Below the pieces are notes generated by a model. It had not been told where the DNA came from. It did no database searches and saw nothing but the letters and a program-made list of their open reading frames with translations. DNA of 58,303 nucleotides, taken from a virus. Made by a program: the position numbers and the translations under genes. Shown here in pieces: positions 5,576-58,303 of the stretch. Every line of letters begins with the position of its first letter. Position 1 is the stretch's first letter. The stretch is taken from IMG/VR virus record IMGVR_UViG_3300045988_124525, positions 1 to 58,303 of that record, one strand, 5' to 3'.

Positions 5576-5602
5576 CCCCGCCGTCCGTGAGGATATGCGG
5601 GG
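5576..5602 (+). promoter_or_regulatory. Conserved GNRA-capped hairpin, copy 1
   Basis: ccccgc-CGTCCGTGAGGATAT-gcgggg. The 17-nt core ccgtccgtgaggatatg is identical at 57305-57321, with a different but still complementary stem. Confidence 0.5.
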
Positions 5603-18998: not shown

Positions 18999-19151
18999 AA
19001 TGAAACTTTTCGTATACAACAAAGCCTCTGCCAAGGCTGGTTACTTGACGAGGCTACAAAATCACCTTTTACGCCGCAAATGTCGCAAAAAATTTTGTTA
19101 TATGAAAATTTTTTCATAGACAAATCACATGTCTTACAACATAACGCACCC

Positions 19152-19448
19152 TCAGACCGTACCGGATAGCTCCTCTTTGACGCTCTCCACCGTTCTTCTC
19201 AGATAGTAACTCCTCCTTATCCTGTCCGGATACAAATTACGCATCCGGTTCACGGCTTGCCTCGTCATCCCCGTCAGATCGGATATGATATTGTCGCTCA
19301 ACTTGCGATCGGCCAGTATGGTTATAGCCACTCCCCTAGCGTCAACGTTCCTCTCCTTATTGTTGCTAAACATCATTACCGGATCGGTTCCGCACTCCTT
19401 GCAGACAGCCTCTATCACTTTTTTGTAAAAAATTTCCACCTTATTCAT
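19152..19448 (-). CDS. DnaA-domain-IV-like HTH DNA-binding protein
   Basis: NKERNVDARGVAITILADRKLSDNIISDLTGMTRQAVNRM resembles the DnaA C-terminal HTH. Confidence 0.45.
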   Translation of the reverse strand: MNKVEIFYKKVIEAVCKECGTDPVMMFSNNKERNVDARGVAITILADRKLSDNIISDLTGMTRQAVNRMRNLYPDRIRRSYYLRRTVESVKEELSGTV

Positions 19449-19747
19449 AAACTTTTTATTTCGTGGTTTGTTTTACTATCAAAGCCGGGCAAAAAAATGC
19501 ACGGCAGAAAGACATATAAGAATCTTCCCGTCGTGCGTGGCATGAAAAAATAATCAAACTTCCGATCCGATTATTTAGGGAAGATTCTTTTTTTTCTTTA
19601 TCTTCCCTTTCCGGTTCGTTCTCACGAAGTCACCATCAAACTAATATTAAATTAACCATGAACAAAAAAACGTCAACCCTTGTTATTCATATGACGAATT
19701 ATTATTACTAGTTAATAGGGGCTTCCCGGACGTGAGTCATGGAGGCC

Positions 19748-25007: not shown

Positions 25008-26960
25008 TTATGTTATGTTTTTAAGGAGCAACTCATAATCTACCGTCTGACCTTTCCCGATACGCTCGGTTATATCGGACACGTATCCCACGTACGTCTT
25101 GCCGGAAAAGGAGCATGATACCCGTCCCTTATAGTTACCCGGGAACGGGGATAACCCAATTGTAGACACCTTTATCTTATCGGATCTCAACAACCTATCA
25201 CTATCTTCTATGGAAATCCCTCCACGTTCCGATATGCCTTTTATGGATACATCGGCATTGCCCTCCGAGGACGTGAACATCAATCCGCTAGCGGACATAC
25301 CGACGTATCCCTTGTTGGCCATCAGCATATTCCTTGGGGAATAGGCGGCGTTGAACATGGTATCGGGGAATAGAACGCCGGTTATGGGATATGATGGCTC
25401 AACGATCATTGTACGAGGGGTTAATCCACCACTTCCAAAGACGGCATCCACAATAAACACGTCATTGTCCGAATCAGTGTCCTTCGTCTCCTCATTCCTC
25501 TCAGTCACGAGGAACTCTATGCCATAAGGATCGGCACGATAAGGGCTTATCAACTTCAAGACATTGTCCGTGGCCTTTATCCCCGTGCTGAATGAGTTCG
25601 TGAAATGAAACTCGTCACGCCCGTTTATCTCGTCGTATTCCTGTTTGTCGTAACCCACTTCCACGCCGCTATAGACTACCGAACTATCTATCGTATGAGT
25701 CATGGAGTTTATCTCCGTCAATGGCAACGGATCGGTCACGGAATCATAAAAATCGCCCAGAGGCTTAAATATAACCTTTCTGTTGACATCATCTATCTCC
25801 CAGTCATAGCCTAACACGGCCTTGGCGAACTCCGTGAACTTAGAGAATGACGTATGTATCTTTGCGTCCTTGATCCCACGTATGCTCTCAGCCGCCATGA
25901 TATAGGGGATCGGAATATTCCCGGTCTTTATTTCCCCGGTATAATCCTTAAGCCCTATCTTTTTAAGCAAGGATGTCAGCAAATCAGAAGCTCTAATGGC
26001 ATCTATGGTTACCGGATCTCCTTTTGCGATATACGTTACGCTTATATCTTTCACGTTTAATAACGTGGCTTTCGCATATGTAATTATGCTATTGGGATAA
26101 ACAAAGAATAGCATTAATTCATCACCTTCCTCTAGGTCTATGCCTCGATCGATATTAACATTTACGATTTGTCCAATACCTGAAAAGTAGGCTATATCTT
26201 CTTTGGGGAACTCTATCTCCTCTTTTTTCCTTTTACCTAAACACAAAGAAGGCATGAAATCCATGTCATAAGAATCAAGCCTCATATCAAACTTTAATAT
26301 CAATCTTATACTAACCGGAGCTAAGGCTTTCACGAACGATGTCATGCTATAATAAGACAATTCTCCAACATGGGAACCTATATCAAACTGCTCAATCATC
26401 CCTTTGATAGGAAAATTAGCGTCACCGTATACCATAGGGAACTCCGTGGCAAGAGCGAACCTTATAGGATAAACATCCAGGTCTGTCTGTTCATTATCTG
26501 GGTCATTTGGATTTATAACCCAAGATACCCTATTATTAAGATATATTCTTTTATAAATCAAGCTTATTTTATTTATATCACTCACAGGGATATCAAAAGT
26601 CTGCGATTTCTGGGAGTTGATAATGGAATAGGTATCATCATCGATTGCGCTCAAGGTAAGCGTATACCCATCGTCACTATAGCTCATAAAGTCCAAAGAA
26701 CAACGATACGCCTCTTTGTACGTAAGATCGTTAATTTGCCGATATATCACTATCTTTGCGGAAGATTCAATATACTTGGATAGGTATAAATCCGTCAAAA
26801 GATCGTAAGCTCCTTTTACGAACTCGAACTTCTTGGCGAACTTACGATATATTCCACCAAAATCCTTTCGAGTAAAAGATAACTCGATGTCATCCCAATT
26901 CTTTAGATCGTTGGTTATATCCGTCTCCTTACTGTCTATTATCAAAGAAATCTTTATCAT
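25008..26960 (-). CDS. Tail protein (distal tail / tail-tip candidate)
   Basis: The likely start is MIKISLIIDSKE at 26960. The 43-aa upstream extension of ORF 25008..27089 is encoded by hairpin element E. Confidence 0.55.
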   Translation of the reverse strand: MIKISLIIDSKETDITNDLKNWDDIELSFTRKDFGGIYRKFAKKFEFVKGAYDLLTDLYLSKYIESSAKIVIYRQINDLTYKEAYRCSLDFMSYSDDGYTLTLSAIDDDTYSIINSQKSQTFDIPVSDINKISLIYKRIYLNNRVSWVINPNDPDNEQTDLDVYPIRFALATEFPMVYGDANFPIKGMIEQFDIGSHVGELSYYSMTSFVKALAPVSIRLILKFDMRLDSYDMDFMPSLCLGKRKKEEIEFPKEDIAYFSGIGQIVNVNIDRGIDLEEGDELMLFFVYPNSIITYAKATLLNVKDISVTYIAKGDPVTIDAIRASDLLTSLLKKIGLKDYTGEIKTGNIPIPYIMAAESIRGIKDAKIHTSFSKFTEFAKAVLGYDWEIDDVNRKVIFKPLGDFYDSVTDPLPLTEINSMTHTIDSSVVYSGVEVGYDKQEYDEINGRDEFHFTNSFSTGIKATDNVLKLISPYRADPYGIEFLVTERNEETKDTDSDNDVFIVDAVFGSGGLTPRTMIVEPSYPITGVLFPDTMFNAAYSPRNMLMANKGYVGMSASGLMFTSSEGNADVSIKGISERGGISIEDSDRLLRSDKIKVSTIGLSPFPGNYKGRVSCSFSGKTYVGYVSDITERIGKGQTVDYELLLKNIT

Positions 26961-26965
26961 AAGCG

Positions 26966-27023
26966 TATAAATAACAAGAGCCGTCCGAGGACAAATACGT
27001 CTCCGGTACGGCTCTTTGGCTCT
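26966..27023 (-). repeat. Late-operon hairpin element, copy E
   Basis: Minus strand: agagccaaagagccgtaccggagacgtatttgtcctcggacggctcttgttatttata, then cgcttATG. Confidence 0.6.
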
Positions 27024-27218
27024 TCGCAAATATACCCATAATAATCCAACGTCCAATATCCTCACCTTGAAAAACGAAGAATAATTCAATATTTATTATG
27101 AGAATATGATAATATGGGGTATATTCGCGTGTCATCGATTAGAGTATAAGACGTGACACACATTGTGGCGTTAAAGATATCGTCTCCTATAAAGACCTAA
27201 ATTCCCCAAATTTATAAA

Positions 27219-27360
27219 CATAACAGGGAGCCGATAGCAACAATACGCCCACGTTATTTGTATATATAATCTATATATAAGACGTGGGCCGTTGCTTACT
27301 ACCTGTTATGTTGGCGTGGGGACGCCGGGTCTTGGTAGTTGCGACGGCGCCACGTTTTTT
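27219..27360 (+). ncRNA. Candidate small RNA: 92-nt compound hairpin plus intrinsic terminator
   Basis: Helices 27219-27/27302-10 (9 bp), 27236-41/27291-96 (6 bp), 27247-53/27283-89 (7 bp), with an AT palindrome at the tip. Terminator at 27315-27354 followed by T6. Confidence 0.45.
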
Positions 27361-27396
27361 ATGCGTATATGGTATGTTATATATTTATAACCCCTT

Positions 27397-27780
27397 ATGG
27401 CTCTCATCCGTGATGGACCGGAGCCATTACTTAAAGATATTACACTAGGTTGTCATAAAATAACTTTATCAAAGCCATACCGCTCTTTCGTGAGAACCAG
27501 AGGTATATTTATGCCAATTGGCATAAAATATAGTTTGAATAAATATTTCCCGCTTCCCTTGGGTGGTATTGGGAGGCGTTTAAGGGGGATATACCCACCC
27601 TTGCCATTCCGGGAGGATCGGCGACGATGATTAGGTATGCCCCTGTTTGGAAATGGATCTAGATATTACAAACGCTCCCGTTCGTGAGAATAGGACCGTT
27701 TAAGTTATCTGGACACATTCATATTGATTATAGTTAAACGATTAAGGCTCCCTTGCCCGTGAGGTTTTGGGGAGTTTTTT
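27397..27780 (+). ncRNA. Candidate structured RNA with a pseudoknot, ending at an intrinsic terminator
   Basis: Hairpin atggctc/gagccat (27397-27427). GUGA-capped hairpins at 27475-27507 and 27669-27701. S1 27551-58/27571-78 (8 bp), with its loop pairing 27561-66/27595-600 (6 bp). Terminator at 27748-27774 followed by T6. Confidence 0.45.
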
Positions 27781-27914
27781 ATTTTAGGTGCCTCAAAACT
27801 ATTAATAGCTTCATACCTTAGGAGACAAGCAGGTAATGAATAAGGGCCCGAGGCAATCCCCCGACCCTTATTATCCAGAGTCAACCATCATGGAGGCTAT
27901 CCAGTCGCTTTATA

Positions 27915-28136
27915 TTACTTTTCATATCGACCTCCTTTCAATGGTATCATCGCGGCCTTAGCTGGGAGCTTTGCTCCTTTCAACTCTTTTATATCACGTT
28001 TTATCTTCAGCACCTCATCAAATAGCATGTTAAAGCTTACGCTCAGATTAACGACATCACCTCTGTAATGATCTAACAGCTTGAAGATGGCTTCTTTATC
28101 ACTAATCTCTGTAATCTCATTTTCTTTCATATTCAA
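27915..28136 (-). CDS. Hypothetical protein
   Basis: 73-aa ORF. Confidence 0.5.
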   Translation of the reverse strand: MNMKENEITEISDKEAIFKLLDHYRGDVVNLSVSFNMLFDEVLKIKRDIKELKGAKLPAKAAMIPLKGGRYEK

Positions 28137-29389: not shown

Positions 29390-29641
29390 TCAATCACCCG
29401 AATAAACCCTGTTACCGTAAAGGCTAGCCATACCGACATGAGTAAGTCTTACAACATGGGATCTTTGCGCAAGCTCCTTGGCAAACGCCGCACGTTTTTC
29501 CGCAAGCTGCACCATCGCTTTCGCCGATCCCCAAGCCTGTTTAAGGCACGAGCCGAATGTACGTCCGTATATTTTGCACTCTCTATAGATCTTATGCGCT
29601 TCCTTCATGATCTCACTCTTGTTGTATTTCTGTGTTGCCAT
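29390..29641 (-). CDS. Hypothetical protein (divergent from the XRE gene)
   Basis: 83-aa ORF. Confidence 0.5.
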   Translation of the reverse strand: MATQKYNKSEIMKEAHKIYRECKIYGRTFGSCLKQAWGSAKAMVQLAEKRAAFAKELAQRSHVVRLTHVGMASLYGNRVYSGD

Positions 29642-29673: not shown

Positions 29674-29779
29674 TAAAGCATATAACTTTATTAAACAAGC
29701 TATATGATTTAAATAATAAAGCGTTTAACTTTATTTAGTAAAGTGTATTGATTTAATTATAATAAAGCATATTACTTTT
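29674..29779. promoter_or_regulatory. Four operator-like 17-bp palindromes plus the -7 box of the XRE promoter
   Basis: TAAAG-N7-CTTTA at 29674-90 and 29717-33. Degenerate copies at 29739-55 and 29763-79. TActTTTG at 29773-80 overlaps the last copy. Confidence 0.6.
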
Positions 29780-29800: not shown

Positions 29801-30082
29801 ATGTACAGAATAAAAGAAATCTTAGACGAAAAAGGTATTTCAGCAAAAAACTTAGCTGAAAGAATGGGCGTAACACCTCAATATATAAGTGGTATTATAA
29901 GAGAAAAAGGTAGTGCATCTATCAGCGTACTTTCTAATATCGCTAAAGAATTGAATGTACCTTTAGCTTCTCTATTTGACGATTACAAAAGTGCACCAGT
30001 AAGCAACTCTTTAAATGTAATTTGTCCTCATTGTGGCAAAGAAGTAAATATAGAACTAACCAAACCAAAAGAAAATGATTGA
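29801..30082 (+). CDS. XRE-family HTH regulator with a C-terminal CxxC zinc ribbon
   Basis: KGISAKNLAERMGVTPQYISGIIREKGSASISVLSNIAKEL is an XRE HTH. CPHCGK near the C-terminus. Confidence 0.8.
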   Translation: MYRIKEILDEKGISAKNLAERMGVTPQYISGIIREKGSASISVLSNIAKELNVPLASLFDDYKSAPVSNSLNVICPHCGKEVNIELTKPKEND

Positions 30083-30105: not shown

Positions 30106-30137
30106 ATTGCATTGCAACTATAAAATAGTTACATTTG
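30106..30137 (+). promoter_or_regulatory. Bacteroidota-type promoter for hicAB
   Basis: aTTG (30106-09) - 20 nt - TAcaTTTG (30130-37), 15 nt upstream of the hicA ATG. Confidence 0.5.
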
Positions 30138-30151
30138 CAAAAACATTCAAT

Positions 30152-30409
30152 ATGGGAACAAAAGAAAAGTTGGTAGAACGCTTCAAGAAACAACCTAACG
30201 ATTTTACGTTTGATGAGCTGGAAAGGCTCTTATCCATATTTGGATATGTAAAATCAAGCAAGGGTAAAACGTCTGGGTCAAGAGTGATTTATCGCAATGG
30301 CGACAAACGTCCTATTATGTTGCACAAGCCCCATCCCGGAAACATAATAAAAGGGTATGCCATGAAGCAAGTATTGGATGATTTAACAGAAGCAGGATAT
30401 ATAAAGTAA
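30152..30409 (+). CDS. hicA: HicA-family mRNA-interferase toxin
   Basis: FTFDELERLLSIFGY...GSRVIY...MLHKPHPGNIIKGYAMKQVLDDL is the HicA/YcfA pattern. Confidence 0.8.
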   Translation: MGTKEKLVERFKKQPNDFTFDELERLLSIFGYVKSSKGKTSGSRVIYRNGDKRPIMLHKPHPGNIIKGYAMKQVLDDLTEAGYIK

Positions 30410-30420
30410 AGGAGGTTATT

Positions 30421-30759
30421 ATGAATACATTGACTTATAAAGGTTATATCGGGTCTGTATCTTTTAGCGAGAAGGACAATGTTTTCTTTGGAAAGATAGA
30501 AGGCATTGATGGTCTTGTTAATTTTGAGGGGGAAAGCGTGCGGGAACTTACAACGGCTTTCCACGAGGCTGTAGATGATTATCTGGCGTATTGCGAGGAA
30601 GAGGGGATTGAACCGCATAAGAGCTATTCTGGCTCATTGAACGTTCGTTTATCACCGGAACTTCATAGTAGAGTGGCTGTTCTGGCAAAGCAAGCAGGCG
30701 TTTCCATTAATGCTTTCATAAAAAAAGCCGTGGAAAAGCAAGTTGCTGTAATGTTGTGA
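30421..30759 (+). CDS. hicB: HicB-family antitoxin with a RHH C-terminus
   Basis: TYKGYIGSVSFSEKDNVFFGKIEGIDGLVNFEGESVRELTTAFHEAVDDYLAYCEEEG...GSLNVRLSPELHSRVAVLA. Confidence 0.85.
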   Translation: MNTLTYKGYIGSVSFSEKDNVFFGKIEGIDGLVNFEGESVRELTTAFHEAVDDYLAYCEEEGIEPHKSYSGSLNVRLSPELHSRVAVLAKQAGVSINAFIKKAVEKQVAVML

Positions 30760-54932: not shown

Positions 54933-55016
54933 CGCCGGGTAGCACGTAGCAGGAAGCGTCCCTCTCTCCTAAAGAGGAGTAGAAATACCCCGTGGGTTCG
55001 AACCCCACCCCGGTGA
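54933..55016 (+). tRNA. tRNA with anticodon CCU and an unusually long (14-nt) variable region
   Basis: Acceptor cgccggg/cccggtg. Anticodon arm cctct-CU-CCU-AA-agagg (54961-77). Variable arm gta-GAAA-tac. T-arm gtggg-ttcgaac-cccac. A73. The D-stem has an A-C mismatch. Confidence 0.6.
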
Positions 55017-57298: not shown

Positions 57299-57327
57299 AG
57301 GTCTCCGTCCGTGAGGATATGAGGCCT
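57299..57327 (+). promoter_or_regulatory. Conserved GNRA-capped hairpin, copy 2
   Basis: aggtctc-CGTCCGTGAGGATAT-gaggcct. Same 15-nt loop as 5576-5602, with a covarying stem. Confidence 0.5.
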
Positions 57328-57740: not shown

Positions 57741-58303
57741 ATGGCTGCTATAAAATCTTACAAGGGATTTGACAAAAATTTAAAATGCCGGGATTTTCAA
57801 TATGAAATAGGCAAGGAATATGAGATGGATGGAGAGATCAAGGTGTGTAACAGAGGGTTTCACGCTTGCGAAAGCCCATTTGATGTTTTTGATCACTATA
57901 CTATGATAGACTCTAGGTTTTGCGAAGTAGAGCAAGACGGGAATATATCCAAGGAGGATAGAGGGACAAAGATTTGCTCCTCGAAAATAAAAATAAAAGC
58001 AGAGTTAAAATTGGCTGACATGATCTATCTTGGAGTCGAATGGCTAAAAGAGATCACATCACCTGAAAAAATAAAAACGAGCATAAAGGATAATTCATCC
58101 GGCTACGGTGCCAAGATAGGATCATCCGGCTACGGTGCCAAGATAGGATCATCCGGCTACGATGCCCAGATAGGATCATCCGGCAACTATGCCCAGATAG
58201 GATCATCCGGCGACGGTGCCCAGATAGGATCATCCGGCGACGATGCCCAGATAGGATCATCCGGCAACGATGCCAAGATAGGATCATCCGGCAACGATGC
58301 CAA
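57741..58303 (+). CDS. 5' part of a DUF7666-like tandem-repeat protein (continues at nt 1)
   Basis: MAAIKSYKGFDKNLKCRDFQYEIGKEYEMDGEIKVCNRGFHACESPFDVFDHY matches the DUF7666 N-terminal pattern as I recall it. It is followed by (I)GSSGxxA(K/Q) repeats. Confidence 0.7.
   Translation, partial: MAAIKSYKGFDKNLKCRDFQYEIGKEYEMDGEIKVCNRGFHACESPFDVFDHYTMIDSRFCEVEQDGNISKEDRGTKICSSKIKIKAELKLADMIYLGVEWLKEITSPEKIKTSIKDNSSGYGAKIGSSGYGAKIGSSGYDAQIGSSGNYAQIGSSGDGAQIGSSGDDAQIGSSGNDAKIGSSGNDA
58095..58303 (+). repeat. Tandem 27-nt coding repeats (about 8 copies, continuing into nt 1-45)
   Basis: The unit tcatccggcNNNNNNgccMagatagga encodes SSG(Y/N/D)(G/D/Y)A(K/Q)IG. Variation is confined to codons 4-5 and 7. 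Confidence 0.9.

What the first reader, a model, noticed from the sequence alone, without database searches (positions are those of the whole stretch)
27140..27782. ~640 nt of non-coding, densely structured plus-strand sequence with two intrinsic terminators inside the tail-operon island
No credible ORF exists on either strand. The only track ORF, 27397..27630, is Arg/Gly/Pro-rich nonsense. The region nevertheless contains the following:
- A 92-nt compound hairpin (helices of 9, 6 and 7 bp plus an AT palindrome tip, 27219-27310), immediately followed by a GC-rich terminator with a T6 tract (27315-27360).
- A second unit (27397-27780) with several GUGA-capped hairpins.
- A perfect 14-nt palindrome, atgccaattggcat (27511-24).
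- An H-type pseudoknot candidate. S1 is cgcttccc/gggaggcg (8 bp). Its loop GGGTGG pairs with CCACCC at 27595-600.
- A terminator with a T6 tract (27748-27780).
- 10-11-nt direct repeats: ttaaagatat at 27171 and 27431, and tataagacgtg at 27145 and 27277.

Both units run antisense-convergent to the neighbouring minus-strand genes. For a compact phage genome this is a large investment in RNA. It could be sRNAs, a riboswitch-like leader, or a larger ornate RNA.
Basis: seen in the sequence. Interest (0 to 1): 0.65.

Follow-up and report, generated by a model that had tools for sequence, protein, structure and literature searches.

The report
Conserved non-coding RNA module, Bacteroides phages
A 667-base stretch of this gut Bacteroides phage genome encodes no protein, folds into many hairpins and is kept almost unchanged in about a hundred related phages, so it most likely makes one or two small regulatory RNAs of unknown role, but nobody has yet shown that it is transcribed.

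Summary
Window 27119-27785 is a discrete, protein-free, hairpin-dense module (fold z = -6). It matches no Rfam family.

The same module occurs in Bacteroides phage BF1-TP2, a Parabacteroides distasonis record, about 66 IMG/VR contigs and 38 gut-metagenome contigs. There are 58 distinct versions, 90-100% identical. It sits in at least three different left contexts and has 13 classes of right neighbour. Close relatives (95% TerL identity) lack it.

Its left edge is a Bacteroides -7-like box (TATATTCG). Its right edge is a hairpin plus U6.

In the same genomes it varies far less than terL third codon positions. The long hairpin has 13% segregating sites against 35% (p = 6e-10).

Strand-specific signs favour the + strand, but only weakly: C-GUGA-G loops, U-tracts, GC skew, and G·U-compatible substitutions.

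Best reading (about 0.5): an autonomous non-coding "RNA moron" that makes a hairpin RNA of about 230 nt and a multi-hairpin RNA of about 310-390 nt.

A riboswitch leader is rejected. A single ornate RNA is not supported, because there is no covariation power and natural deletion variants exist. Transcription and function remain untested.

The parts
27119..27785 (+). Whole conserved non-coding module (the 'element'). In about half of the contexts homology runs on to about 27823.
   Evidence: Sharp homology edges against BF1-TP2 and the IMG/VR and metagenome copies, with flanks that do not align. No conserved ORF. No Rfam match.
27120..27127 (+). TATATTCG, a -7-like promoter box. It differs by one base from the Bacteroides consensus TAnnTTTG and sits at the left edge of conservation.
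   Evidence: Conserved in all contexts while the upstream DNA differs. Three versions carry the exact consensus TATATTTG. Consensus taken from PMC7366714. Its function is inferred.
27131..27157 (+). Weak 5' hairpin (GUCAU...GUGAC) in a variable leader.
   Evidence: -5.1 kcal/mol, z = -1.26. The segment varies between copies.
27165..27353 (+). Long compound hairpin of about 190 nt with an AU-rich tip.
   Evidence: -80 kcal/mol, z = -6.05, 0 of 200 shuffles as stable. nhmmer finds reverse-strand self-hits. Only 26 of 200 sites segregate, against 244 of 704 terL third positions.
27355..27360 (+). U6 tract directly after the long hairpin. Putative end of RNA-A.
   Evidence: Sequence. T-run length varies from 6 to 8 among copies.
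27361..27387 (+). Variable spacer, with a second -7-like box TATATTTA at 27380-27387.
   Evidence: One of the most variable substitution segments in the element; it also carries a 5-nt indel. Box located.
27397..27427 (+). Hairpin with a GUGAU loop.
   Evidence: -15.5 kcal/mol, z = -3.35. Nearly invariant.
27461..27468 (+). Third -7-like box, TAACTTTA. It sits at the 5' edge of the sub-unit that survives alone in a natural deletion variant.
   Evidence: L069 and L088 keep only the part from about 27455 onward, directly after terL. The junction lies in an ATAAAATAA repeat. Only the 'n' positions of the box vary.
27477..27506 (+). Hairpin P1, capped by a C-GUGA-G tetraloop.
   Evidence: Fold. 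Nearly invariant. CGTGAG located.
27503..27531 (+). Hairpin P2, built on the 14-nt palindrome. Its length is variable.
   Evidence: 31 of 41 versions carry a 39-nt insert exactly at the tip. The insert extends the hairpin (-22 kcal/mol, z = -2.87).
27551..27578 (+).
   Evidence: -13.9 kcal/mol. The loop is among the most conserved segments.
27594..27599 (+). CCACC(C). Possible pseudoknot partner of the P3 loop.
   Evidence: 5-6 complementary bases are present in all versions and nearly invariant. No covariation is available. Inference only.
27596..27629 (+). Hairpin P4.
   Evidence: Fold. The four window-versus-consensus substitutions in its stem read as G·U-compatible on the + strand when checked by eye against the alignment; the aggregate kept/broken counts are.
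27631..27737 (+). Long hairpin P5, with a C-GUGA-G tip at 27683-27688.
   Evidence: -27 kcal/mol, z = -2.16. One true compensatory change, C-G to U-A at 27659/27712.
27744..27785 (+). Terminator-like hairpin with an inner C-GUGA-G loop, followed by UUUUUUAUUUU. This is the right edge of conservation.
   Evidence: -15.1 kcal/mol, z = -2.51. Homology to other contexts stops after the U-tract.

Best explanation
The element is an autonomous, accessory non-coding transcription module of temperate Bacteroides and Parabacteroides phages. It has the layout of a 'moron' (promoter, payload, terminator), but the payload is RNA rather than a protein gene.

Proposed transcripts, both read from the + strand:
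- **RNA-A** (about 27134-27360, roughly 230 nt). A short variable leader, then a sequence-invariant hairpin of about 190 nt that ends in U6.
- **RNA-B** (from about 27392 or 27473 to about 27782, roughly 310-390 nt). Six or seven hairpins, three of them capped by C-GUGA-G tetraloops. It has an AU-rich single-stranded linker, a possible loop-linker pseudoknot and its own terminator.

The RNAs would act in trans, either by base-pairing with host or phage transcripts or by binding or sequestering a protein. They would confer an accessory benefit, as the protein morons in the hypervariable island next to the element do. The module moves between phage genomes by recombination at its edges.

What is shown:
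- It is non-coding.
- It is a discrete unit.
- It occurs in several contexts and is absent from close relatives.
- It is under purifying constraint.
- It folds far better than chance.

What is inferred:
- That it is transcribed.
- That the + strand is the active strand.
- That there are two transcripts.
- That it acts in trans.
For: **Non-coding.** ORFs are broken or frameshifted between copies and have no family hits.

**Discrete module.**
- The same 667-735-nt block is found in BF1-TP2 (87% identical, unannotated), in P. distasonis NZ_OY725834, in 66 IMG/VR contigs and in 38 gut-metagenome contigs.
- In most loci the flanks show no nucleotide homology to the window.
- Left neighbours are terL (42 loci), a 110-aa gene (14 loci) or, in the window, a divergent 650-aa virion gene. 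Right neighbours fall into 13 classes on either strand.

**Edges.** The left edge is the -7-like box TATATTCG, which is TATATTTG in three versions. The right edge is the end of the U-tract.

**Accessory.**
- Phages with 65-95% identical TerL have no copy downstream of terL.
- Their contigs, one of them 63.7 kb, were not hit by any of the three pattern scans.

**Constraint**, measured on copies retrieved through TerL, so without bias from the element's own sequence:
- terL codon position 3 has pi = 0.051 and 35% segregating sites.
- The long hairpin block has 13% segregating sites (p = 5.7e-10).
- The whole element has 22% (p = 2.4e-7).

**Fold.** z = -6.0 for the whole region and z = -6.05 for the long hairpin.

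**Strand.**
- Both U6 tracts follow hairpins on the + strand.
- The three CGTGAG motifs lie on + at hairpin tips. Elsewhere in the window this motif is co-oriented with genes in 26 of 28 cases.
- GC skew turns positive in the element, as it does in + strand genes.
- G·U against A·C oppositions in the hairpins: 19 against 10.
- Window-versus-consensus substitutions keep 15 of 23 pairs on + and 6 of 19 on - (one-sided p = 0.03).
- The 39-nt insert extends hairpin P2.
Against: - There is no transcript evidence of any kind.
- All copies are at least 90% identical. Covariation therefore has no power: 2 of 202 pairs show double-sided changes.
- Structure-preservation tests over the full length are null and look alike on both strands.
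- Fold z-scores are nearly the same on both strands. The hairpins are therefore equally DNA palindromes.
- The -7-like boxes on + each miss the consensus by one base, and such boxes are common in AT-rich DNA (58 exact matches in the window against 46 expected).
- Exact consensus boxes lie on the minus strand inside and just to the right of the element (27207-27214 and 27794-27801).
- Both arms of the long hairpin are invariant, and even G·U-type changes are absent. This fits sequence-specific recognition, or a recent horizontal sweep, as well as it fits an RNA helix.
- In 56 of 59 informative loci a co-directional gene ends 32-76 nt upstream. The RNA could therefore be a 3'-UTR product rather than an independent transcript.
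- No complementarity to the rest of the phage genome exceeds chance.
- The strand-bias tests are individually only p = 0.03-0.07.
Confidence: 0.5

Rival explanations
1. It is a DNA-level cis element. The block would be a set of protein-binding palindromes, a recombination 'boundary' sequence that anchors exchange of the adjacent hypervariable moron island, or a terminator and insulator cluster between convergent operons. Any RNA made from it would be incidental.
For: - Fold z-scores are similar on both strands.
- Both arms of the 190-nt palindrome are conserved at the sequence level, with no compensatory or wobble changes.
- The element always marks the constant left border of a hypervariable island.
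- In most loci it is the first strong hairpin plus U-tract after terL.
- More distant TerL relatives carry clearly DNA-level, iteron-rich non-coding regions at the same position.
Against: - It is absent from close relatives, so it cannot be an essential cos, pac or ori site.
- It lies 20 kb from the terminase genes in the window and 4.4 kb from them in BF1-TP2.
- It has no iterons or repeated binding sites.
- Related phages terminate terL with a simple hairpin of about 40 nt, so 667 nt is not needed for termination.
- The strand-specific signals all point to one strand: GNRA loops, U-tracts, G·U bias and GC skew.
Confidence: 0.22
2. It is a single large ornate RNA of about 650 nt with a defined tertiary fold. 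This would be a Bacteroidales-phage counterpart of the phage-associated ROOL and GOLLD RNAs. The internal U6 would be read through.
For: - Its size and many hairpins.
- Three GNRA tetraloops, which in large RNAs commonly make tertiary contacts.
- A possible pseudoknot whose two partners are among the most conserved segments.
- Its location in phages.
- Constraint along most of its length.
Against: - No Rfam hit to GOLLD, ROOL or any other family, even at E <= 10.
- A variable spacer with a hairpin plus U6 splits it in two.
- The L069/L088 variant lacks the entire 5' half, and L164 lacks one arm of the long hairpin.
- Predicted long-range helices are not preserved between copies.
- There is no covariation.
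Confidence: 0.08
3. It is a functionless relic or a selfish passenger. It could be a decayed gene or a non-autonomous mobile element that hitch-hikes in a recombination hot spot. Its low diversity would reflect a recent horizontal sweep rather than selection.
For: - The family is narrow: all copies are at least 90% identical.
- It is absent from 185,579 GTDB species representatives.
- It has sharp edges and sits in several contexts.
- Deletion variants exist.
- The window's copy looks mosaic: the 5' 400 nt are about 99% identical to other copies and the 3' 270 nt about 87%.
Against: - It is single-copy in every contig.
- It has no terminal inverted repeats, no target-site duplication and no conserved target sequence at its junctions.
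- It has no residual similarity to any protein family.
- Within the same genomes it is 2-3 times less variable than terL third positions, and the pattern is blockwise: conserved hairpins, variable spacers. A single sweep does not produce that pattern.
Confidence: 0.15
4. It hides one or more small protein genes.
For: An ATG-initiated ORF of 43-85 aa starts at 27397 in all copies.
Against: - The ORF ends at different places in different copies. A stop codon follows residue 43 in the majority form, and the C-terminus is frameshifted in the window.
- All substitutions in its shared part are non-synonymous, and it tolerates 1-, 3-, 5- and 39-nt indels.
- It has no Pfam or PHROG hit.
- The exact window ORF is not on record as a called gene.
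Confidence: 0.03

Closest known systems
Prophage-encoded trans-acting sRNAs carried as morons (for example DicF of Qin, IpeX, and the EHEC prophage anti-sRNAs AgvB and AsxR). Named from established knowledge.
   Same: - Non-coding, self-contained unit in the accessory region of a temperate phage.
- Promoter-like box at one edge and an intrinsic terminator at the other.
- Present or absent among close relatives.
- Independent of the orientation of neighbouring genes.
   Different: - It is far larger: 667 nt, probably two RNAs of about 230 and 310-390 nt, against 50-150 nt.
- No target complementarity was found.
- No sequence or Rfam relationship.
- The host phylum lacks Hfq and ProQ.
- Expression is unproven.
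ROOL and GOLLD large ornate RNAs (Rfam families; often found in prophages).
   Same: A phage-associated, multi-hairpin non-coding RNA candidate several hundred nucleotides long, GNRA-rich and of unknown function.
   Different: - No covariance-model match, even below threshold.
- It is divisible into two units.
- Natural deletion variants exist.
- It is not next to tRNAs.
- Its taxonomic breadth is very narrow, and no covariation supports a global fold.
Bacteroides intergenic sRNAs BTnc231 and GibS (Rfam RF04180 and RF04182; PMC7366714).
   Same: - Same host group.
- Canonical layout of transcription start plus intrinsic terminator.
- The terminator hairpins carry the same C-GUGA-G type loop, which is what produces the weak Rfam alignments.
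   Different: Scores are 16-20 bits against gathering thresholds of 80-115. Only the terminator hairpin aligns, so the element is not a member of either family.
Non-coding, transcribed origin region of lactococcal phage c2, and the lambda PR'-tR' 6S RNA and HK022 put RNA regions. Named from established knowledge.
   Same: Phage non-coding regions that contain a promoter, a structured RNA and terminators.
   Different: - Those regions are essential cis elements with a fixed position relative to replication or late genes.
- This element is dispensable in relatives, changes position and orientation, and in the window has no co-directional genes downstream.

Membership tests
Any Rfam 15 family (4227 models, including GOLLD, ROOL, pRNA, HEARO, riboswitches and ribozymes) | Covariance-model score at or above the family's gathering threshold | tested here: not met
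   No gathering-level hits in the whole window. At E <= 10 the best hits are BTnc231 at 16.2 bits (threshold 80.4) in the window and 20.2 bits in the BF1-TP2 copy.
Phage moron (autonomous accessory transcription unit) | Own promoter at the 5' edge | tested here: inconclusive
   TATATTCG (27120-27127) differs by one base from the Bacteroides -7 consensus, lies exactly at the edge of conservation in all contexts, and is TATATTTG in 3 versions. The motif is common by chance, and there are no transcription-start data.
Phage moron (autonomous accessory transcription unit) | Intrinsic terminator at the 3' edge | tested here: met
   Hairpin 27744-27778 (-15.1 kcal/mol, z = -2.51) followed by UUUUUUAUUUU. 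Homology between contexts ends there. This rests on sequence only.
Phage moron (autonomous accessory transcription unit) | Present or absent among close relatives, and inserted between unrelated genes | tested here: met
   Absent from phages with 65-95% identical TerL. Three left contexts and 13 classes of right neighbour.
Trans-acting base-pairing sRNA | A stable transcript is detected | not testable with these tools
   No expression data can be reached from here.
Trans-acting base-pairing sRNA | Conserved seed complementary to targets | tested here: not met
   No match of 13 nt or more to the rest of the phage genome. All 11-12-mers are at chance level. Host targets were not searched.
Riboswitch or cis-regulatory leader | Fixed position upstream of a co-directional, functionally consistent gene | tested here: not met
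   Downstream neighbours fall into 13 classes on either strand. In the window the next gene is convergent.
Structured RNA with a conserved fold | Compensatory base changes supporting the helices | tested here: inconclusive
   2 of 202 RNAalifold pairs show double-sided changes. Copies are 90-100% identical. Window-versus-consensus changes keep 15 of 23 pairs on + and 6 of 19 on - (p = 0.03 one-sided).
MITE or other non-autonomous transposon | Terminal inverted repeats, target-site duplication, and multiple copies per genome | tested here: not met
   The ends are not inverted repeats. The junctions show no duplication or common target. There is one copy per contig.
cos or pac site, or replication origin | Essential and therefore present in all close relatives; iterons or terminase-binding repeats; fixed position | tested here: not met
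   Missing in close relatives. No iterons. Its distance to the terminase genes ranges from 76 nt to about 20 kb.
Protein-coding gene | ORF conserved in length and frame, with mostly synonymous substitutions | tested here: not met

The most novel reading that the evidence does not exclude
The module encodes a new class of phage-borne structured RNA with a non-regulatory job. One possibility is an RNA decoy or anti-defence factor, or a protein-sequestering scaffold. It would be carried in the same hypervariable accessory island as nuclease-like and J-domain morons. The sequence-invariant 190-nt hairpin would be the recognised part. Alternatively, the full 650 nt could fold into one ornate particle comparable to ROOL or GOLLD.
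Probability: 0.12. Interest if true: 0.75.

Novelty: new member of a known kind. Interest (0 to 1): 0.42.

Why it matters
Gut Bacteroides and Parabacteroides phages are abundant and poorly understood. Almost nothing is known about RNA-based functions in them, and their hosts lack Hfq and ProQ.

This element gives a defined, unannotated, selectively constrained non-coding unit that is present in a cultured phage (BF1-TP2 on B. fragilis BL19). It can therefore be probed by Northern blot or dRNA-seq and deleted. If it is expressed, it would be a first example of an 'RNA moron' in this phage group, and a handle on what accessory RNAs do for temperate gut phages.

If it turns out to be a DNA-level boundary or insulator element, it would instead shed light on how the adjacent hypervariable island is exchanged.

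Tried and rejected
1. **Known RNA families.** Rfam at gathering threshold and at E <= 10, on the window and on the BF1-TP2 copy, gave only noise. ARAGORN found no tRNA or tmRNA in the element.

2. **Distant homologues for covariation.** All of these returned only copies at least 84% identical to the window, or nothing:
   - three exact-pattern scans of IMG/VR;
   - two scans of GTDB genomes, giving 0 true hits;
   - one gapped-pattern scan of metagenomes;
   - blastn 'distant' against phages and plasmids;
   - synteny-guided retrieval through TerL and through the J-domain neighbour;
   - nhmmer over all fetched loci.

3. **Covariation and structure-preservation tests.** RNAalifold, a no-GU single-sequence structure and full-length window-derived structures showed no usable signal. 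Many predicted long-range helices are spurious.

4. **Hidden ORF.** Rejected.

5. **Antisense or seed complementarity to the rest of the phage genome.** At chance level.

6. **MITE or IS-derived element.** No terminal inverted repeats, no target-site duplication, single copy.

7. **cos, pac, ori or attP.** Rejected on dispensability and changing position. The integrase and tRNA-Arg lie at 51.8-55.0 kb.

8. **A second similar non-coding block at 19035-19747.** It contains a plausible 98-aa gene and folds only modestly (z = -2.7). Not related.

9. **L174 as a truncated variant.** It is a Nextera-adapter chimera.

10. **Literature.** No paper mentions BF1-TP2 or this element. One 2026 preprint on mining non-coding elements could not be opened.
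Full report
**What is there**

The gap between the virion-protein gene on the left and the 73-aa ORF on the right is 954 nt with no credible gene.
- The left gene occupies 25008-26960 on the minus strand. Its real start is ATG 26960, because the PHROG profile aligns from residue 3.
- The right ORF occupies 27915-28136 on the minus strand.

Two coordinates are off by one base.

The only sizeable ORF, 27397-27630, is not a gene.
- In 31 of 41 related versions a 39-nt insert puts a stop after codon 43.
- The window's C-terminus is frameshifted relative to the others.
- Every substitution in the shared part changes the amino acid.
- Indels of 1, 3, 5 and 39 nt are tolerated.
- No ORF here hits Pfam or PHROGs.

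**Structure**

The region folds far better than shuffled sequence, at -215.6 kcal/mol with z = -6.0 on the + strand. The minus strand does nearly as well, with z = -5.4.

The dominant feature is a single compound hairpin of about 190 nt, 27165-27353, followed directly by U6 (-80 kcal/mol, z = -6.05, 0 of 200 shuffles as stable).
- On its own the terminator-1 stem is unremarkable (z = -0.3).

Downstream lie:
- a GUGAU-capped hairpin (27397-27427, z = -3.35);
- P1 (27477-27506);
- the palindrome hairpin P2;
- P3 (27551-27578);
- P4;
- a 107-nt hairpin P5;
- a terminator-like hairpin ending in UUUUUUAUUUU.

The motif CGTGAG occurs three times in the element, each time at a hairpin tip on the + strand.

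**Known families**

No Rfam 15 family matches at gathering level anywhere in the window. At E <= 10 only noise appears. The best hits are the Bacteroides sRNAs BTnc231 and GibS at 16-20 bits, against thresholds of 80-115. These alignments are driven by the shared terminator-loop type. ARAGORN finds only tRNA-Arg at 54933.

**Relatives and boundaries**

The block 27119-27785 has the following relatives.

| Source | Finding |
|---|---|
| Bacteroides phage BF1-TP2 (host B. fragilis BL19) | 87% identical, unannotated stretch |
| Parabacteroides distasonis NZ_OY725834 | 85% identical |
| IMG/VR | about 66 contigs |
| Human-gut metagenomes | 38 contigs |
| GTDB species-representative genomes | none |

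There are 58 distinct full-length versions among 142 retrieved copies, and they are 90-100% identical pairwise.

Homology has sharp edges, and in most loci the flanks do not align with the window at all.
- **Left neighbour.** It is terL, ending 76 nt upstream on the same strand, in 42 loci. It is a 110-aa gene, ending 32 nt upstream on the same strand, in 14 loci. In the window it is a divergent 650-aa virion gene.
- **Right neighbour.** It falls into 13 classes on either strand: a J-domain protein, Rha/Ant regulators, membrane proteins, an aspartyl-protease/TPR protein and others. A giant LPD38 polyvalent-protein gene follows.
- **Left edge.** It is GTATATTCG, whose TATATTCG differs by one base from the Bacteroides sigma-ABfr -7 consensus TAnnTTTG (PMC7366714). 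Three versions carry the exact consensus TATATTTG.
- **Right edge.** It is the end of the U-tract.

**Accessory status**

Phages retrieved through TerL alone, with 65-95% identical TerL, have no copy after terL. In four of them terL is followed at once by the convergent gene. None of their contigs, one of them 63.7 kb, was hit by the three pattern scans.

Two natural deletion forms exist.
- L069/L088 keeps only the part from about 27455 onward. The junction lies in an ATAAAATAA repeat.
- L164 has lost 27156-27286 between the two TATAAGACGTG repeats.

The element is single-copy per contig.

**Constraint**

This was measured on the 38 distinct sequences retrieved through TerL, so the set is not biased by the element's own sequence.

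| Region | pi | Segregating sites |
|---|---|---|
| terL codon position 1 | 0.005 | not computed |
| terL codon position 2 | 0.002 | not computed |
| terL codon position 3 | 0.051 | 244 of 704 |
| Long-hairpin block | about 0.01 (windows) | 26 of 200 (Fisher p = 5.7e-10) |
| Whole element | 0.004-0.03 per 100 columns | 163 of 730 (p = 2.4e-7) |

The pattern is blockwise.
- Nearly invariant: the long hairpin, the GUGAU hairpin, P1, the P3 loop (GGGUGG) and the ATACCCACC segment.
- Variable: the 5' leader, the U6 and spacer at 27347-27384, the P2 tip and the P5 tip.

This fits two functional units separated by a spacer. It is hard to explain by a single recent sweep.

**Which strand, and is it RNA?**

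With copies at least 90% identical, covariation has no power.
- RNAalifold finds 202 pairs, but only 2 have double-sided changes.
- Full-length structure-preservation tests are null on both strands.

Strand-specific signals all point to the + strand, but each is modest.
- U-tracts follow hairpins only on the + strand.
- CGTGAG is co-oriented with genes in 26 of 28 cases elsewhere in the window, and is on + three times out of three here, opposite to the flanking genes.
- GC skew turns positive across the element, as it does in + strand genes.
- G·U-type against A·C-type oppositions in the hairpins number 19 against 10 (p = 0.07).
- The window's 3' half is about 13% diverged from all other copies. 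Structures were predicted from one sequence and scored on the other. On the + strand 15 changes keep a pair and 8 break one. On the minus strand 6 keep and 13 break (one-sided p = 0.03). The kept changes include a true C-G to U-A swap in P5.
- Read by eye against the alignment, four wobble-type changes sit in the 7-bp P4 stem.
- The 39-nt insert extends hairpin P2 rather than disrupting it.

**Interpretation**

The best-supported reading is an autonomous accessory non-coding transcription module, an 'RNA moron'. It would make a hairpin RNA of about 230 nt and a multi-hairpin RNA of about 310-390 nt from the + strand, acting in trans. I put this at about 0.5.

Unresolved points:
- Whether transcription starts at the -7-like boxes, or whether the RNAs are 3'-UTR products of the upstream co-directional gene in the common contexts.
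- Exact TAnnTTTG boxes lie on the minus strand at 27207-27214 and 27794-27801.
- Both arms of the long hairpin are invariant at the sequence level. This would also suit a protein-recognised DNA or dsRNA site.

Rivals:
- A DNA-level boundary, insulator or binding element (0.22).
- A passenger or relic with low diversity from a recent sweep (0.15).
- One large ornate RNA (0.08).
- A hidden small protein (0.03).

A riboswitch or leader role is rejected on context. A cos, pac, ori or attP role is rejected on dispensability, changing position and lack of iterons. No complementarity to the rest of the phage genome exceeds chance.

**Novelty and score**

The element is unannotated and belongs to no described RNA family. 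Its kind, a phage accessory non-coding RNA unit, is known. Its family is narrow, a single lineage of gut Bacteroidales phages. Its expression is unproven. It is a good, concrete experimental lead, because a cultured phage carries it, rather than a surprising discovery. Interest: 0.42.

Noticed in passing
window 58095-58303 and 1-43: A 27-nt tandem array (TCATCCGGCAACGATGCCAAGATAGGA, 7.7 copies) runs off the right end and continues at the left end; bases 1-43 repeat 58240-58303. The window therefore looks like a circularly closed or terminally redundant complete phage genome of about 58.3 kb. Whether the array is coding (27 nt = 9 codons) or a set of iterons was not examined.
   Followed up: partly
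window 26976-27034 (minus strand): An exact Bacteroides -7 box, TATATTTG (27027-27034, minus strand), lies upstream of the 650-aa virion gene, whose real start is ATG 26960. A perfect 9-bp hairpin (26976-27016) sits in that gene's leader. The left gene therefore appears to have its own promoter outside the element.
   Followed up: partly
window 27207-27214 and 27794-27801 (minus strand): Exact TAnnTTTG boxes lie on the minus strand. One is inside the long hairpin. The other is just right of the element and points into it, within a 38-nt right extension (to about 27823) that is conserved in about half of the contexts. They could drive antisense transcription, or they could be chance.
   Followed up: no
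whole window; for example 5581-5597 and 57305-57321: CGTGAG is twice as frequent as expected (32 against 15) and is co-oriented with genes in 26 of 28 cases. An identical 17-nt hairpin core, CCGTCCGTGAGGATATG, occurs in two intergenic regions 51.7 kb apart.
   Followed up: partly
L127:3167-3620, L130:1586-2260, L132:3167-4045, L133:3167-3910, L134:2775-3460: Phages with 65-70% identical TerL carry non-coding regions of 440-880 nt after terL. These are packed with phage-specific 8-mer iterons in both orientations (GTTACAAT, GGACAAT, GTGACAAT, GGAACAAT), plus alternating CGCGCG and AT-rich blocks. They look like a DNA-level cis region (origin, packaging or operator cluster) and are unrelated in sequence to the element.
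   Followed up: no
window 29707-29778: An AT-rich 22-nt repeat (3.2 copies) lies in the divergent gap between the minus-strand genes ending at 29641 and the plus-strand HTH-like gene starting at 29801. It may be an operator or switch region.
   Followed up: no
window 30107-30759: Two adjacent small plus-strand ORFs (100 and 112 aa) look like a HicA/HicB toxin-antitoxin pair. This is judged by eye from the translations only.
   Followed up: no
L164:2921-3482, L088:3237-3619 and L174: There are two natural deletion variants of the element. L164 is deleted between the two TATAAGACGTG repeats. L088 and L069 are deleted between two ATAAAATAA repeats. The apparent truncation in L174 is a Nextera-adapter assembly chimera.
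   Followed up: yes
window 19035-19747: A 713-nt gap in the list of ORFs of at least 100 aa holds a plausible 98-aa minus-strand gene (19152-19448) and a UUCGUGAGAAC hairpin like P1 of the element. The fold is only modest (z = -2.7), and the region is not homologous to the element.
   Followed up: partly
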